A DNA stretch of 64,000 nucleotides from Diadema antillarum (Eukaryota). The position numbers are program-made. The stretch covers positions 1-64,000 of the forward strand of contig NW_027271554.1 of assembly GCF_040938485.1 (NCBI RefSeq). Reading direction: 5' to 3'. Shown in pieces: positions 42,001-64,000 of the stretch (positions are counted from its first letter, which is position 1; each line of letters opens with the position of its first letter).

Positions 42001-45000
42001 TAATACAAAACGGATATTTGAAGGTACCATATTTACTTCTAGATTAGACTACGCTGTAAGAGAAGTTTGAAAACGTCATTTGTAATTCTGCTTCCAATAC
42101 TCAAACCCTGATAATACAGAAAAACAAAATTCAGATGTGATTTTTGGTTAAATGTGAGAACGTGACGTATCTCTGTAACCAAAGGTCATGTGAAGAGTTT
42201 GTTTGCAAAAACCGATAAGTCCATATTTGTCAAATGGAGATATTTGCAATCAAAGGTCAAGAAAAATATAGAGAATAATAAGAAGTTTTTTGCTTCTTTT
42301 GACCATAACTTCAAAAATGTACCTTTATATGTAGTGACCAATATATCATTGTAAAGGTAATATTTTGTACTATATGATAGAGACTGTACTTTAAAATCTT
42401 CAAAAAATGGACTTATCGATTTTTTTCGAATAAACTCTTCATGTATATTCAGTATTGAAAATCGCAAAATAACATTCATTAGAAAGAAAGTCATCGGACA
42501 ATCTAAAAATTTAAAATCGTTTTGAAAGATAAAGTGCTGGCAATTTTCATTGACACGAGAGGAAACTAGCGCCAATTACTATTTCAATTTTGAATTCTCC
42601 ATCAATTTGCCCTTTTTTTTATTGAATTGACACAGATAACTTGCAGCAGAGGTTAAAATAGTTAGCTGACTTTCACTGTGGATAAAGAAAGAAGAGATCG
42701 TGAACGAATATATGAGAAAGCGTGAGACGATTTGTTTCTTATGAGTAACTTGACTCATTACGTTTATTTTGATTTTTCAGAGTGCGAGAAATGTCTGAGA
42801 TTCTGCGTCTGGACACCTTGGTGCAACGATGAGGCCCCTGGTAGGTTGGCAAGCGATGCTCTTGTGGAAGAGGAACTTCTTTCGGATGTTCAGCACTATC
42901 CTGGATTCCCAGCCATCTGCATCATCCGCAAAGACGTGGAATGCCGAACTGTCGACACGCATATATTCTCCAACGAGACCGACGACGCTGCAACGTGTGA
43001 CCCTGAGATTGGTCTTCAGTGTAGAAATGGTCCTCTGCGTCCCCCTTGTAGGGATTACGAAATAAGGTTCCTCTGTTGTGGTAGCACGTGTCCTCCTAAA
43101 TGTTGGCCAAAACCAACTACACCGCCCCCAATATCAACAACACCGGGTTCGTATCTTGTTCCTGTCAATTTCAACATATGTTATTCAAGCAGTCATGGTC
43201 TAGCAGTTGTTGTAGTTTGCAGTTTGTTGTAGTATTAGTATAGTAGTAATAATAATAGTAGTTGTAGTTGCTGTTGTACTGTAGTAACAGTACTAATCAT
43301 ACTTTTAGTTCCGTTAGTTGTCGTAATGGTAGTAACGGTACTTGCATTTAAGTTTTATCAGTTTATCTGTGAAAGCAATTTCAGAACTCTTGTGTTTGTA
43401 AAATGTTTCATTTATTTTACACGCTTATCAAAATCGTGTCCATCCCAAGAGACATGCGAGAGAAAACCAAATCAGTGGGAACCTGAAAAGGCTTGGCTGT
43501 ATGCGACGTTCACCTTTTTGGCCCGAATTCACGAAGGTGGTACAAATGGTTTCATATGCCCATGGTTTAAACCATGGACAAAAACCTTAAAGCGCCAAGT
43601 GTCGCGCTGAATAGTTCGTCACGAAATTGGTCATTTCGTCGACAAAATGACCATTTCGTTAACTGAATTATCATTTCGTGGACGAAATGTTCATTTAGTT
43701 ACAAAATGTTGTCATTTCCCTTCAACAAAATGATCATTTCATCGAAGAAATGACTGATTTAGTAACGAAATATTTCATGCGACACTTGGCGCTCCATGGT
43801 TGTATTTGTACCACCTTCGTGAATTCGGGCCTTTATGTTTTAGAAACTTTTTCAGATTGTATCAATTACATCATAATTCTGCCAATAATTTTCTTTCGTC
43901 ATAATTTGCAATGGTTAGCTGACCCTTTCATTCCATATTCTGATAACCTTCTAATGCCGTTGTCTAGAGGCCTACATTCGAGTGTGAAAGTGTCACCAAA
44001 CGATGAATTACGATTATACCAGCTAGAGGAACTAAATTATTCCACGTCATCCATTCACAGCTTGTCAAGTTGAGGAGGTCTGCGAATGGACTCCGTGGTG
44101 TGACGACGAAAAGTTCGGCCCAAAGTTGACGCCGTTCGACGTCGGGGAATTCGAGATCATCGATGACTGCCGCAAGCATGTCGACATCTGTGAGAAACCC
44201 TCCGACGTGGAATGCCAGATGTCCATGTCGCCGCACCTCGACTCGAGCGTCATTCCGCAGGAAGTCACGTGCGACGTGGATCTCGGCCTTGCCTGCTTGC
44301 ATTCCGACAGCCAGCCTTACTGCCTAGATTTCCGCGTCAGGTACGCCCCCGGATATACACCATTATACGACACCTAAAAAGAATGTAGCTATCCAGTTGG
44401 TCAATTGTCCATCACGTGACTTTCATTTAAAAGTGCCACCGCAAGACGCTGTTGATGTCAGCCGTGCAAATTTGTGTGAGCAAATTCGGATAGCGCATGA
44501 ATGACGTCACCCATTTCCATTGACTCCCGTGTTCAACTCACGATTGACTCGGGGTTTTTTTTTCCATAGCACGGCTCTGATGTCACAATAAACATTCAAT
44601 TACCGCGCGCACTCAACAATACTTTACAAGCGCGCTTATTGTTACTCATTTTTGTAAGCAACTTCAACCGATCGGTTTCGTGCAGCGACTCATTCGCCTG
44701 TTCCACGGAAAATGGTTGCCATTTCTGTGATAAATTTAAGAATCTGTGTGGACCACATCTGTCAATGTTTTCTAAGTTTACAACTGAAGATATTGTATTT
44801 TACATATAAAGTAACAAAATCAAACTGGAAGATATCACCTTCGAATGCACCAAAACATGAAATGTTGAGAATTAGTCGAGCTCGAATACCGGATTTTTTT
44901 TTTTTTTTTTTTTTGGGGGGGGGGGGGGGAGTTAAAATTGTGGTAAAAGTGTTTCTGTCACTGAACATTCCCAAAATAAATGCGATTTGATTTGAAAGCA

Positions 45001-47815
45001 CTTAAGCAAAATGAACATAGCTCATGATTTCCTATACCAACTAAATTTAGGTAGTTATTTGCACCCACAGTATCAATTGGTATTTTATACTGAAAATATA
45101 GCAAAAAGAGTACATTTAAACGAACGAATATAAATTTGAAATTTTAGATTTTAGAAATAGGTTCCAAGAGAATAGATTTTCATCTAATCTTTGAAGGTAG
45201 CTGCCTAAAAAACTTCTGACTTCAAAGATTTTGAATATTTTGAAACTGTTTTTTTTTTATTATTCATCAGAGAGAATGATGATTTCGTCTTGACATATCA
45301 TATTCGAGATGTTTACCTTTGTGATACAATCTGAGGTGGTAATCATTGGAGCTATAGCAACGCTGATGAGATGAAAATCTAATTGATTATACCTAGATTT
45401 AGAGTAACAAGTACAATGCACTCACTAGTGGAAAGATCCAACATTCTTTGTAGCTTGCATAATTTGGAATGATATCATCTTGTAGACTACGAATTCAGTA
45501 CCTCGCCACAACTTCATTTAATACAAAGTTAAAAGTGTGACTTTAGATAAAATACACAGTTTCTAGTACTCAGTAGGAGCTTTTGTATATAACTGGCAGA
45601 CTGCATTTTCTTAGGGGGTTTTGTCTTAAGGTGTTTTTTTTTTAGAAAGTTGTTTATGCATTAAATATTGGTATTTTCCTAAACGGAAAATCCAGACGAT
45701 TTTCATAATTTCACATCATGTAGTCCATAAATCGACAGTTCCATGTATAGATTTGTGGAATTTATTGTGGTTCTTGATCAGAGAAACAATACTTTGAAAA
45801 ACCTCAAACAAATTACACTGAACAAGGATGATGACATAGAGGTTCACATATTTCAGAGATGTAGTTAGTGTAATTCCATGTCAATACCGCTTGCGTGCGA
45901 GTTCATCTGTGTATAATCTATGCATGCCTTTTTTTGTTCTGCTTCCTTAAGCCCCAACACCTGCATTCTTATTGTGACTCTGCCATGTCATCATCCTTGT
46001 TCGTTGCAATTTGTTCTTAATTTTGAAGATATTCTTATTATTCATCTCAGTTATCATAAATTCTGAAACTCAGCCCTCAGAATAACTAATTCATAGTTTT
46101 TTTCAAATGGATAAATCTGAAAATCATCCGGAGGTCTCCTTTAATTTTTTTTTTTTTAACAACATAGATTCCTGTGCTGCAAGAATGTAACTGTTGGCCC
46201 CGGTTGCACCACTCCGGAAGAAGTCACAACCATCACAGGTATGGTCATCTACCCATAGAATTCTTTTGGGCAGTTTAATATCCCTACATATTCTTCTGTT
46301 TAACCCATCTCTCTAAAGAACGTGTACGCATGGAAATGTCACATTTCACAGCCAATAATCAAGTAATAGGTAGGTTAGTTGGAAAGCTATACACAGGCAG
46401 GAAGGCTAACCAGCATTGACCAGCATGGCCTCTATAAGCCATTTTACAGTTCCACTTTGCACATGAGCAGAAAAAGGAAATTTGTACAATCAGCCATGTT
46501 CTTTTTTTAATTCACTGAGATAAGCATACCAGATGTAATGATTATTCATGTAACCCTTGTAAATGGTGCTTGCTAGCACATCGATCTGACAGCTAGCTTG
46601 GTATTTAGCAATGCTGGTAGAAAAAGTTTGTTTATGCATTCAACACAAACCAATGAAATGAATGCCTGCCGAAGTGTCAATTGACAGACCATTCTTGTCA
46701 CCTGCTCTGTGCAAGTTCATTCTTTGAACGTGAATTTCATAAATTGTGGGCATGCTTATGCATCATGCTGCTTTAAGAAAACGAGTGAAGTGCCTAACCT
46801 ATTGAGAAAAAAGAAAGGTCATTTGTATCAATGTGCCCATGAGCTCACTGTGAACTGGCTTATTATACTCTGGGGTCAAAGTGCGTTCAAGCATGCACTC
46901 GGGATTCTGATTGGATCTTGCTGAGTTTAGCACCTTTAATGGAACGAAACTCATTTTCCAATGGCGGATTTCTCCATTTTCTCACAGGATTTCATTACGT
47001 AGAAGAGATGAATGAACGGACTACTAAAATTATAAAAATGGATTTATCACCTTTTGATAAGGAATTCTTCATATACAATATGTCCCCCCCCCCCAAAAAA
47101 AATTACAATCAGATTTTCGCATTGATAACACCAGATACGATTAAATTGTCTAAATACTACTTCAGGGTCTTAAACCACAACATTTTATCTTTATTTTGCA
47201 GAAAATCTCATTCGATTTGGTTGAGCGGTCACAGAGAATGTGGATTGTTGTAAAGCATTTCCTGAGTCTGATTCTTCCAAGTTTAGCACTTCAATGATCT
47301 AGTGTGTGAATACAATAAACAGAACTTGGAGGGAAGAGATTCCCGACATCCTGTACAAAATTCCTCATTTCCTTTACAACTGAAGCAAATCGAATGGGTT
47401 TTTCTGTAAGATGTGGGCAATGAGTTATAGTTTCATACCCTGAATTTATATTTAGATTCATCCACTTTTAAAGATATCATTGCGGAGGGTCCCGTTGTAT
47501 TTTTTTTTTTTGGGGGGGGGGGGACACATACGGTACATTAGATGCATGTTATTGTCCCATACATTACAAGAAATATGGGTAATAACGTGTTCGTTTCTTT
47601 CCTCTTCGCCCCTCCCACAGTACCAACGACCCCGCCCAAAACTCCGCCCACCCATGATGACTGCAAGCCGAGAAAACGATCTGAGCCAACGTACATCGAG
47701 TACAGGGGTTGCGTCAGCAAGAGGCCTATCTACACCAACGAATGCGCTGGACGGTGCTTATCGCGCTACTCATACGATGAGGTACGTAAGACACTTCCTG
47801 GTTGGTTTATGGGTG

Positions 47816-63800: not shown

Positions 63801-64000
63801 TGGATAGTCACAAATTTCCATCTGTGTACGACAATCCTTGATGTACTCAAACTCGCCATCGTCTGATGGCAGGATTTTATCATCATCAGTGCACCAGGGT
63901 GTCCATTCGCAAACTGGGGTCGGTGTAGTGCAATCTGCGTTTCAGAAACAAATGTTAAAAATGACTTTACGTTTAATAATAGGCGCCGCAGATGGTGCGA

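What the first reader, a model, noticed from the sequence alone, without database searches (positions are those of the whole stretch)
44061..63934. Tail-to-tail pair of paralogous mucins with CysD joined directly to CTCK (no D4/vWC region)
Seen: both genes end with a 280-bp CysD exon (phase 1-2), a small FLCC(K/R)NVTVG exon (2-1), CTCK exon 1 (1-0) and CTCK exon 2, and the terminal CysDs align closely (CEWTPWCDDE..TP.D.GEFE.I.DCR...DICE.P.D.ECQMS..P.LD...Q..TCDV..GL.C.HSD.QP.CLD.RVR). Established: in MUC2/5AC/5B a vWD4-vWC region lies between the PTS/CysD region and the CK; MUC6 lacks that region but has no CysD. Inference: this is an inverted duplication yielding a distinct mucin subfamily. 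The gene 1 CTCK has 11 Cys and the gene 2 CTCK has 12 (extra CEPC), raising the question of homo- versus heterodimerisation.
[Added by the scan's program, not by the reader: the finding's places include an assembly gap (unread letters, written N; its length is only estimated) at 52035 to 52257. Whether the letters on both sides are continuous or in frame is not known: test that first.]
Basis: partly seen in the sequence, partly recalled or inferred. Interest (0 to 1): 0.65.

Follow-up and report, generated by a model that had tools for sequence, protein, structure and literature searches.

The report
Paired sea-urchin-type gel-forming mucin tails
Two old, intact sister genes for secreted mucus-type glycoproteins of an echinoderm lie tail to tail, and each ends in a CysD domain, a short sugar-bearing linker and a cystine-knot dimerisation domain, a layout shared with other sea urchins in which the usual fourth D domain seems to have moved upstream rather than been lost.

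Summary
On the + strand (gene 1) and the - strand (gene 2), four AG/GT-bounded exons with matching phases encode a 280-nt CysD exon, an exon starting FLCC, and a two-exon cystine knot (CTCK). Pfam confirms the CysD and CTCK exons one by one. The exon pairs are 62%, 48% and 29% identical. The knots have 11 and 12 Cys. The N gap is intergenic.

No VWD, C8, TIL or VWC coding sequence occurs anywhere in the 64 kb.

The interpretation needs three corrections:
- The "FLCC exon" is the last strand of the CysD fold, not a separate module.
- The window is echinoderm. Gene 1 is orthologous to Diadema RefSeq proteins of 6382 and 6904 aa with the same CysD-linker-CTCK end.
- Those orthologues have four N-terminal VWD modules. 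The fourth groups with vertebrate D4, so D4 appears relocated upstream of the CysD/PTS array, not lost.

Mucins with CysD but no downstream D4 already exist in amphibians. The direct CysD-CTCK junction was seen only in Diadema: 3 of 75 proteins.

This is a modest architectural variant of a known family. Homo- versus heterodimerisation stays untested.

The parts
738..43146 (+). Gene 1: tandem array of 31 single exons, each encoding an array-type CysD, the RFLCC end and a short PTS stretch. Examples: 738-1169 and 13331-13762 (432 nt each); the last is 42781-43146 (366 nt). All are phase 1->1. The array runs off the 5' end of the window.
   Evidence: ORFs. 31 CysD intervals by tblastn. Boundaries. 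Pfam Mucin2_WxxW E 6.6e-13 and 8.1e-13. Unit periods and identity.
44061..44340 (+). Gene 1 terminal-type CysD exon, 280 nt, phase 1->2, 9 Cys
   Evidence: Pfam E 5.7e-14. 73% identical to the last CysD of Diadema P0005. Clade support 95/94.
46168..46238 (+). Gene 1 mini-exon (R)FLCCKNVTVGPGCTTPEEVTTIT, 71 nt, phase 2->1. It is the end of the CysD fold plus an NVT sequon and a short linker.
   Evidence: Homology of RFLCC to the solved CysD C-termini.
47621..47781 (+). Gene 1 CTCK exon 1, 161 nt, phase 1->0, short PT linker plus 4 Cys
   Evidence: Cys_knot 19.2 bits, below the cut-off. 53% identical to P0005. Alignment.
48411..48593 (+). Gene 1 CTCK exon 2, 7 Cys (CSCC...C...CSC...C), TGA stop at 48591-48593
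   Evidence: Cys_knot 29.3 bits. Gap-free alignment to VWF CTCK 4nt5_A and MUC2 7qcu_A.
52035..52257 (.). Assembly gap (223 N) in the 5.9-kb intergenic spacer between the two stop codons. A 31-nt direct repeat flanks it (51978-52008 and 52258-52288).
54470..54643 (-). Gene 2 CTCK exon 2, 7 Cys, TAA stop at 54472-54470
   Evidence: Cys_knot 27.2 bits. 48% identical to gene 1.
55530..55708 (-). Gene 2 CTCK exon 1, 179 nt, phase 1->0, 5 Cys (extra Cys in GICEPC)
   Evidence: Cys_knot 16.6 bits, below the cut-off.
56317..56486 (-). Gene 2 exon (R)FLCCRNVTVGVTC plus about 40 aa of PTS-like linker, 170 nt, phase 2->1
58630..58909 (-). Gene 2 terminal CysD exon, 280 nt, phase 1->2, 9 Cys
   Evidence: Pfam E 1.4e-14. 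62% identical to gene 1.
60425..61974 (-). Gene 2 exon (R)FYCC... followed by a long PTS domain: 1550 nt, 516 codons, 75% P/T/S, phase 2->1. It holds 59.7 copies of a 24-nt unit.
   Evidence: No Pfam family.
63661..63934 (-). Gene 2 upstream CysD exon, 274 nt, phase 1->2. The gene continues beyond the window end.
   Evidence: Pfam E 7.1e-15.

Best explanation
The region holds the 3' ends of two anciently duplicated genes for secreted, polymer-forming (gel-forming-type) mucins of an echinoderm, most likely a sea urchin. It is neither Diadema nor S. purpuratus, and I do not take it for human. The genes converge tail to tail.

How each protein is built:
- The repeated unit is [CysD + PTS], bounded by phase-1 introns.
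- In gene 1 most units are single exons. 31 near-identical copies lie in the window.
- In gene 2, and in the last unit of gene 1, an intron splits the CysD just before its final RFLCC strand.
- The last unit has only a short PTS linker, about 35 residues in gene 1 and about 70 in gene 2. It runs straight into a canonical two-exon C-terminal cystine knot.

Inferred mechanism, from established knowledge of VWF and MUC2:
- The knot makes disulfide-linked tail-to-tail dimers in the ER through three interchain disulfides.
- The N-terminal D assemblies lie outside the window. In the Diadema orthologue of gene 1 they are D1-D2-D3, a short PTS stretch, then a D4-type VWD-C8. They would link the dimers into polymers.
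- The PTS stretches carry O-glycans, and the CysDs act as compact cross-linking beads.

Compared with vertebrate MUC2/5AC/5B, the mucin domain sits between D4 and CK instead of between D3 and D4, and the VWC stalk is absent. The C-terminal dimer would therefore be held by the knot alone, flanked directly by a CysD.

What is shown: exon anatomy, domain identities, paralogy, absence of VWD/VWC in the window, orthologue architecture.
What is inferred: expression, secretion, dimerisation, and the N-terminal architecture of the window's own genes.
For: - Exon anatomy and phases.
- Pfam per exon.
- Gene 1's second CTCK exon aligns without gaps, 7 of 7 Cys, to the solved VWF CTCK (4nt5_A, E 3e-04) and the MUC2 C-terminus (7qcu_A).
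- The CysD exons match solved MUC5B, MUC5AC and MUC2 CysDs.
- All canonical Cys are kept between the paralogues and in three Diadema sequences.
- The exons are GC-rich islands of about 0.50-0.55 in DNA of about 0.35-0.39.
- No VWD, C8, TIL or VWC is found in the 64 kb: 14 named queries, 4826 HSPs at E <= 0.01, 38 merged intervals, all CysD or CTCK.
- Orthology: Diadema setosum XP_072175733.1 (P0005, 6382 aa) and D. antillarum P0158 (6904 aa) end in the same CysD-RFLCC.NVTVG-PTS-CTCK.
- Gene 1's terminal CysD is 73% identical to theirs and groups with them at 95/94.
- P0005 residues 76-1240 are collinear with D1-D3 of a bird MUC5AC (E 2.7e-154).
- P0005 1330-1478 is a Pfam VWD (E 8.4e-19) and 1521-1584 a C8 (E 5e-17).
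- That fourth VWD falls in a 100/98 clade with vertebrate D4 and the post-CysD VWD of Saccoglossus, in a 30-row tree.
- CK dimers with three interchain disulfides: passages of PMC10082768.
Against: - There is no transcript or protein evidence. All exon models rest on splice consensus, phase and homology.
- The N-termini of both window genes lie outside the window. VWD assemblies are inferred for gene 1 by orthology and are unknown for gene 2.
- The Diadema proteins are automatic RefSeq models. A fused model, with an upstream D1-D4 gene joined to a downstream CysD-CK gene, would give the same picture in both species.
- The first CTCK exons score below the Pfam cut-off on their own and find nothing in the PDB.
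- Gene 2's orthology is unresolved. Its CysD and CTCK exon 1 are closer to P0005 (63% and 50%), while its CTCK exon 2 is closer to P0072 (52%).
- The 99.7-100% identity of the gene 1 array units could partly reflect assembly behaviour.
Confidence: 0.8

Rival explanations
1. One reading: a distinct mucin subfamily that has lost the D4/VWC region altogether, so the proteins are D1-D3 + CysD/PTS + CK (MUC6-like but with CysD), or even lack D assemblies.
For: No VWD, C8, TIL or VWC anywhere in the 64 kb. Gene 2's N-terminus is unknown. The only Diadema model resembling gene 2 (P0072, 308 aa) is CysD-PTS-CTCK only. Proteins with 3 VWD + CysD + CK and no D4 exist: 10 of 183.
Against: The gene 1 orthologues in two Diadema species have a D4-type VWD-C8 upstream of the CysD array. 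The first ~35 residues of P0072 look like a spurious start, so it is probably a truncated model. The window simply does not reach the N-terminal part.
Confidence: 0.2
2. The tail-to-tail adjacency is a scaffolding artefact. The two genes lie on contigs wrongly joined or wrongly oriented across the N gap.
For: The gap at 52035-52257 separates the two genes. Its flanks are low-complexity and repeat-rich.
Against: A 31-nt direct match (28/31) sits at the gap edges in the same orientation, score 47 against a shuffle maximum of 29. In D. antillarum the long orthologue P0158 and the paralogue-like P0072 are both reported with a longest contig of the same length, 2,880,795 bp, which suggests linkage there too. 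Orientation there is unseen.
Confidence: 0.15
3. The two knots (11 Cys and 12 Cys) form heterodimers, so the gene pair encodes one mixed polymer.
For: The genes are adjacent and share the knot scaffold, 48% identity in exon 2. Heterodimeric cystine-knot proteins exist. The PDB hits include bursicon, whose heterodimer I recall from memory only.
Against: Nothing here tests it. Gel-forming mucins and VWF are described as homodimers (passages of PMC10082768). The first knot exons are only 29% identical. The 12th Cys is absent from gene 1 and from three Diadema sequences, so it is a lineage-specific addition, not part of a conserved heterotypic pair.
Confidence: 0.1
4. One or both copies are non-functional relics.
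For: No expression data. Gene 2's terminal CysD acceptor has a weak polypyrimidine tract.
Against: All exons are open and all phases match. Every canonical Cys is kept at 29-62% overall identity, which implies long-term constraint.
Confidence: 0.07

Closest known systems
Diadema setosum XP_072175733.1 (P0005, 6382 aa) and the D. antillarum 6904-aa protein (P0158), both named 'uncharacterized protein' in RefSeq
   Same: Same C-terminal plan: array-type CysDs, then a terminal-type CysD, RFLCC.NVTVG, a short PTS and an 11-Cys CTCK. Identity to gene 1 is 73% (CysD), 65% (FLCC exon), 53% (CTCK exon 1) and 52-54% (CTCK exon 2). Precomputed Pfam lists VWD, C8, TIL and WxxW, with no VWC.
   Different: Different species. 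The Diadema PTS stretches between CysDs are 100-330 aa, against about 44 aa per array exon in gene 1. Their N-terminal D1-D3 + D4 is visible, whereas the window's is not.
Vertebrate MUC2 / MUC5AC / MUC5B
   Same: CysD (Mucin2_WxxW), PTS and CTCK domains. In the orthologue, D1-D3 is collinear at 32-34% identity and the fourth VWD is D4-type.
   Different: In vertebrates D4-C8-TIL and VWC domains lie between the last CysD and the CK. 55 of 75 proteins have more than 600 aa there, and 45 of 183 are of the 3+1 VWD type. Here the distance is about 100-140 aa with no extra domain, and D4 (in the orthologue) precedes the CysDs.
Amphibian 'mucin-5AC-like' proteins lacking the fourth VWD (Xenopus Muc5A/E/F/G/H/I in Lang et al. 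2016; here Rhinatrema, Hyla, Discoglossus, Eleutherodactylus, Lithobates, Pseudophryne)
   Same: CysD-rich mucins with no VWD after the CysDs and a C-terminal CK (PMC4948705 passages).
   Different: They keep 230-440 aa with 18-30 Cys (VWC-like) between the last CysD and the knot's CC motif. They have three, not four, N-terminal VWDs.
MUC6 / MUC19
   Same: No VWD-C8-TIL unit after the mucin domain (PMC4948705 passages).
   Different: That paper assigns CysDs to the MUC2/MUC5 types, not to MUC6 or MUC19. Here CysDs dominate the protein.
VWF C-terminal cystine knot (PDB 4nt5, 9qrv)
   Same: The second knot exon aligns gap-free with all 7 Cys. The knot has 11 Cys in gene 1.
   Different: Gene 2 has a 12th Cys just before the knot. 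The upstream neighbour is a CysD rather than VWC domains.

Membership tests
Gel-forming mucin (VWD-C8-TIL x3 ... PTS ... CK; Lang et al. 2016) | Three N-terminal VWD-C8-TIL assemblies | not testable with these tools
   The 5' parts of both genes lie outside the window, and no eukaryote genome collection was available. The gene 1 orthologues P0005 and P0158 have them: collinear with bird MUC5AC D1-D3 at E 2.7e-154, and 4 VWDs by local jackhmmer.
Gel-forming mucin | PTS (Pro/Thr/Ser-rich, repetitive) domain | tested here: met
   Gene 2 exon 61974-60425: 516 codons, 75% P/T/S, no stop, with a 24-nt unit x 59.7. Gene 1 has a short PTS tail in each of the 31 array exons.
Gel-forming mucin | C-terminal cystine knot | tested here: met
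   Exon by exon only. The second exons score 29.3 and 27.2 bits against a cut-off of 24. The first exons score 19.2 and 16.6 bits at profile positions 3-37. Alignment to VWF and MUC2 knots. The joined domain was not scored.
MUC2/MUC5AC/MUC5B subtype | CysD (Mucin2_WxxW) domains within the mucin region | tested here: met
   All 5 CysD exons tested give E 7e-15 to 8e-13. 34 CysD intervals in the window.
MUC2/MUC5AC/MUC5B subtype | VWD4-C8-TIL and VWC domains between the last CysD/PTS and the CK | tested here: not met
   tblastn with 14 named mucins found no such interval in the 64 kb. The introns hold no Cys-rich domain-like ORF. The Diadema orthologues have only 101 aa and 8 Cys between the last CysD and the CC motif.
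MUC6/MUC19 subtype | No D4 after the mucin domain, and no CysD | tested here: not met
   The first half is met. The second half fails, because CysDs are abundant.
CysD fold (solved MUC2, MUC5B, MUC5AC CysDs) | WxxW motif, conserved Cys pattern and the C-terminal ...R.LCC strand | tested here: met
   WTPW in all copies. Array exon against 8oer_I E 4.9e-08, with RFLCC aligned to RVLCC. Terminal exon against 8oer_I E 3.9e-10. In the terminal units the last strand lies in the next exon.
VWF-type dimerising CTCK | 11 Cys including CxCC and the last Cys. Which of these are the three interchain Cys is recalled from memory, not taken from a call. | tested here: inconclusive
   The Cys pattern is present: gene 1 has 11 and gene 2 has 11 + 1. 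Dimerisation itself was not tested, and no joined model or complex prediction was run.

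The most novel reading that the evidence does not exclude
Sea-urchin gel-forming mucins have a rearranged body plan: D1-D2-D3, short PTS, D4, then the whole CysD/PTS mucin domain, then CK, with every VWC module lost. 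The D4 assembly would then be part of the N-terminal head, and the C-terminal dimer would be held by the knot alone with a specialised 'terminal-type' CysD clamped next to it. The window's two paralogues are members of this plan. Gene 2 has gained a spare 12th Cys beside the knot that could add a fourth interchain disulfide, as the extra Cys does in MUC2.
Probability: 0.4. Interest if true: 0.5.

Novelty: new variant of a known kind. Interest (0 to 1): 0.35.

Why it matters
Models of mucin and VWF assembly treat D4 plus the VWC stalk as the C-terminal "bouquet" that zips two chains together above the knot (PMC10082768 passages). A natural lineage with the stalk gone, D4 moved in front of the glycosylated domain, and a CysD abutting the knot is a ready-made experiment. 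It can show which parts are needed for tail-to-tail dimerisation, granule packing and gel properties.

It also shows that CysD/PTS arrays have expanded at different positions of the ancestral D1-D2-D3-D4-CK scaffold in different deuterostomes. They lie before D4 in Saccoglossus and vertebrates and after D4 in Diadema.

For annotation, the "uncharacterized protein" labels in Diadema and the fragmentary "mucin-5B" in S. purpuratus can be read as gel-forming-type mucins.

The practical weight is modest. This is a family member with an unusual domain order, not a new kind of molecule.

Tried and rejected
- word-indexed search with gene 1's terminal CysD exon against longer proteins (162-2000 aa). 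12 candidates, none scored. Uninformative, because the relatives are longer than 2000 aa.
- DNA-level inverted repeats between the two genes. None were found apart from microsatellites and a local 124-nt hairpin, so the duplication is old.
I replaced it with an ORF-wise Cys scan and tblastn.
- the first CTCK exons alone against the PDB gave no hit at E <= 10.
- ESM Atlas look-alikes of P0072. The best feature score was 0.82 (a lead only) and structure TM was at most 0.35. No large cluster combining WxxW and Cys_knot appeared, which is weak evidence either way.
- the tree did not resolve gene 2's orthology to P0072. The per-exon identities conflict.
- Literature: I found no paper describing an echinoderm mucin with CysD next to CK or with D4 before the CysDs. 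One search (Strongylocentrotus + gel-forming + mucin + VWD) gave 0 papers. One search failed on a term of more than four words.
- Lang et al. 2007 (PNAS) is not held. I recall that it covers invertebrate mucins but I saw nothing of it.
- The supplement of Lang et al. 2016 (fig. S4, domain drawings) may show echinoderm architectures. It is closed and was not seen.
There is therefore no whole-knot Pfam score, fold or dimer model for the window's genes.
- Not run: complex prediction and structure prediction. A knot dimer would pass by likeness to solved VWF and could not separate homo- from heterodimers.
- The genome-contig scan was not used, because it holds bacteria and archaea only.
- The orientation of the Diadema paralogues could not be checked.

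Full report
**What is in the sequence**

The window has about 35-41% G+C, with G+C-rich islands. Between 43 kb and 64 kb the islands of at least 50% G+C coincide with the proposed exons.

On the + strand the DNA shows four exons with AG acceptors, GT donors and matching phases:
- 44061-44340, 280 nt, phase 1->2.
- 46168-46238, 71 nt, phase 2->1.
- 47621-47781, 161 nt, phase 1->0.
- 48411-48593, ending in TGA.

On the - strand the same plan recurs:
- 58909-58630, 280 nt.
- 56486-56317, 170 nt.
- 55708-55530, 179 nt.
- 54643-54470, ending in TAA.

Gene 2 continues upstream with two more exons. One is a 1550-nt exon (61974-60425) that begins (R)FYCC and then encodes 516 codons of 75% Pro/Thr/Ser, including 59.7 copies of a 24-nt unit. 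The other is a further CysD exon (63934-63661).

Gene 1 is preceded by 31 single exons, each encoding a CysD, RFLCC and about 44 residues of PTS, all in phase 1->1.

I searched the model exon by exon.

**Domain identities**

Pfam gives the following:
- Mucin2_WxxW for all five CysD exons tested, E 7e-15 to 8e-13.
- Cys_knot above the curated cut-off for both last exons, 29.3 and 27.2 bits against 24.
- Cys_knot below the cut-off for the first knot exons, 19.2 and 16.6 bits, at profile positions 3-37.

Gene 1's last exon aligns without gaps, with 7 of 7 Cys, to the solved VWF knot (4nt5_A, 9qrv_D) and to the MUC2 C-terminus (7qcu_A). The first knot exons alone find nothing in the PDB.

The terminal CysD exon matches solved MUC5B, MUC5AC and MUC2 CysDs.

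An array exon, where CysD and RFLCC are contiguous, aligns through ...CRDYEIRFLCC with ...CHDYELRVLCC of MUC5B and ...CYDYKIRVNCC of MUC2. The "small FLCC exon" is therefore the last strand of the CysD fold, cut off by a phase-2 intron, plus a linker. It is not a separate element.

**Paralogy**

The two terminal CysD exons are 57/92 identical (E 8e-46). The last exons are 25/52 identical (E 3e-18). The first knot exons are 15/51 identical (E 2e-06).

No DNA-level inverted repeat survives between them, so the duplication is old.

The Cys counts are 11 and 12. The extra Cys of gene 2 is the first C of GICEPC, an insertion two residues before the first canonical Cys. It is absent from gene 1 and from three Diadema sequences.

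**The gap**

The only N run, 52035-52257, lies in the 5.9-kb spacer between the stop codons. It interrupts no exon or frame.

It does separate the two genes, so convergent adjacency depends on the scaffold join.

A 31-nt stretch (51978-52008) recurs at the right gap edge (52258-52288). It matches 28/31 in direct orientation, with score 47 against 200 shuffles (mean 20.3, max 29). This is mild support for one repeat-rich locus in one orientation.

**Is a D4/VWC region hidden in the window?**

No. tblastn with 14 named full-length mucin-type proteins (birds, turtle, amphibians, Branchiostoma, Mytilus, Saccoglossus, Diadema) gave 4826 HSPs at E <= 0.01. These merge into 38 intervals:
- 31 array CysD exons.
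- 3 further CysD exons.
- 4 knot exons.

Nothing corresponds to VWD, C8, TIL or VWC. The six introns within the two terminal four-exon units hold no Cys-rich domain-like ORF.

**Whose genes are these?**

A profile of the three terminal-type CysDs, run against 1.84 billion representatives, found 417 proteins at E <= 0.001.

- P0005 is XP_072175733.1 of Diadema setosum, 6382 aa, "uncharacterized protein".
- P0158 is its D. antillarum counterpart, 6904 aa.
- Both end in terminal-type CysD, RFLCCQNVTVG, a short PTS and an 11-Cys knot.
- Gene 1 is 73%, 65%, 53% and 52-54% identical to them over its four exons. Its CysD groups with theirs at 95/94 support.
- A partial S. purpuratus model (XP_003731652.2, "mucin-5B", 237 aa) shows array-type CysD, PTS, terminal-type CysD and RFLCCRNETVG. 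It is only 58-62% identical to the window.

The window is thus echinoderm and probably echinoid. It is none of these three species, and I do not take it for human.

Terminal-type and array-type CysDs form separate, well-supported clades, 98/95 and 100/99.

Gene 2's orthology to a second Diadema model (P0072, 308 aa, probably truncated) is unresolved.

**Where D4 went**

P0005 residues 76-1240 are collinear with D1-D3 of a bird MUC5AC (E 2.7e-154). After about 85 residues of PTS comes a fourth module at 1328-1661. Its best matches are as follows:
- The D4 of bird MUC5AC, E 1.1e-30. The same D4 matches the other three P0005 modules only at 8e-22 to 4e-25.
- The D4 of turtle MUC5AC.
- The VWD that follows the CysDs in Saccoglossus, E 4.7e-53.

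Pfam confirms VWD at 1330-1478 (E 8.4e-19) and C8 at 1521-1584 (E 5e-17).

In a tree of 30 VWD(+C8) rows, the fourth Diadema VWD sits in a 100/98 clade with vertebrate D4s, and at 99/94 with the Saccoglossus VWD.

All 17 (P0005) or 21 (P0158) CysDs follow this module. In the orthologues, D4 is not lost but lies in front of the CysD/PTS array, and no VWC is listed.

Caveat: these are automatic gene models.

**How unusual is it?**

Of 184 proteins held, 183 have a CysD. By VWD position they include these classes:
- 45 are 3 VWD + CysDs + 1 VWD + CK.
- 10 are 3 VWD + CysDs + CK without D4: amphibians, marsupial models and Mytilus.
- 2 are 4 VWD + CysDs + CK, both Diadema.

Of the 184, 75 have both a CysD and a C-terminal knot motif. 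The distance from the last CysD to the knot's CC motif is:
- At most 150 aa in 3, all Diadema.
- 151-600 aa in 17.
- More than 600 aa in 55.

Passages of Lang et al. 2016 (PMC4948705; section 15 read whole) state that MUC6 and MUC19 lack the C-terminal VWD unit. They also state that six Xenopus Muc5 paralogues lack the fourth VWD and that 11 of 26 frog mucins have CysD. They say nothing specific about echinoderm architectures. Their supplement, which I could not see, might.

Five full-text searches found no description of this arrangement.

**Mechanism**

Shown here: intact exons, conserved Cys scaffolds, and family membership of each domain.

Inferred from established knowledge: the knot forms a dimer through three interchain disulfides, as in VWF and MUC2 (passages of PMC10082768). 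N-terminal D assemblies polymerise the dimers. PTS regions are O-glycosylated. CysDs act as compact cross-linking beads.

Without a VWC stalk or a D4 next to the knot, the tail-to-tail link would rest on the knot alone, with a specialised CysD about 35-70 residues away.

After subtracting three interchain Cys, gene 2's last unit has an odd Cys count: 9 + 3 + 12. A spare Cys could make an additional intermolecular bond, as Cys4379 does in MUC2. This is speculation.

Nothing here tests heterodimerisation.

**Verdict**

- This is a lineage-specific domain-order variant of gel-forming mucins. It is already present, unnamed, in public sea-urchin gene models, and it is of moderate interest.

Noticed in passing
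window 686-43146 (+): Gene 1's CysD-PTS exons sit in a tandem array of 31 units of two subtypes. About 10 units have a period of about 1095 bp (one spacing is 969 bp), and about 20 have a period of about 1508-1510 bp (four spacings are 1764-1773 bp). Adjacent equal-length units, introns included, are 99.7-100% identical in 11 of 13 pairs and about 90% in 2. This means either very recent amplification or homogenisation, or partly assembly behaviour. The array runs off the window's 5' end.
   Followed up: partly
window 63381-63632 (-), wider 62913-63632: A reverse-transcriptase fragment (Pfam RVT_1, E 3.5e-09) lies in the gene 2 intron between the upstream CysD exon and the PTS exon. It is a decayed retroelement insertion, with neighbouring ORFs in other frames.
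   Followed up: partly
window 57768-57891 and 58195-58318: A 124-nt inverted repeat, 91% complementary with 303 nt between the arms, lies in the gene 2 intron. It looks like a small foldback or MITE-like element.
   Followed up: no
window 46184-46192, 56470-56462, and homologues: An N-x-T sequon directly follows the CysD's final CC in 4 of 5 echinoid sequences: KNVT in gene 1, RNVT in gene 2, QNVT in Diadema P0005, RNET in S. purpuratus P0181. It is absent from P0072. This is probably a conserved N-glycan at the CysD exit.
   Followed up: no
window 60412-61971 (+): A 519-codon open frame (GGVVVPG... repeats) lies antisense to gene 2's PTS exon. It mirrors the 24-nt repeat and is not evidence of a gene.
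   Followed up: no
window 47783-47880, 50118-50294, about 50990-51170, 51800-52034: Several microsatellites and low-complexity tracts lie in the gene 1 knot intron and in the intergenic spacer. They include a TATTAC hexamer x 29.7 and the tract that ends at the assembly gap.
   Followed up: no
Diadema proteins P0005 and P0158 against Saccoglossus P0016: In the hemichordate fragment the CysDs precede the D4-type VWD (VWD at 983-1134, knot motif at about 1411-1451). In Diadema the D4-type VWD precedes all CysDs. The CysD/PTS array therefore occupies different slots of the same scaffold in sister phyla.
   Followed up: partly
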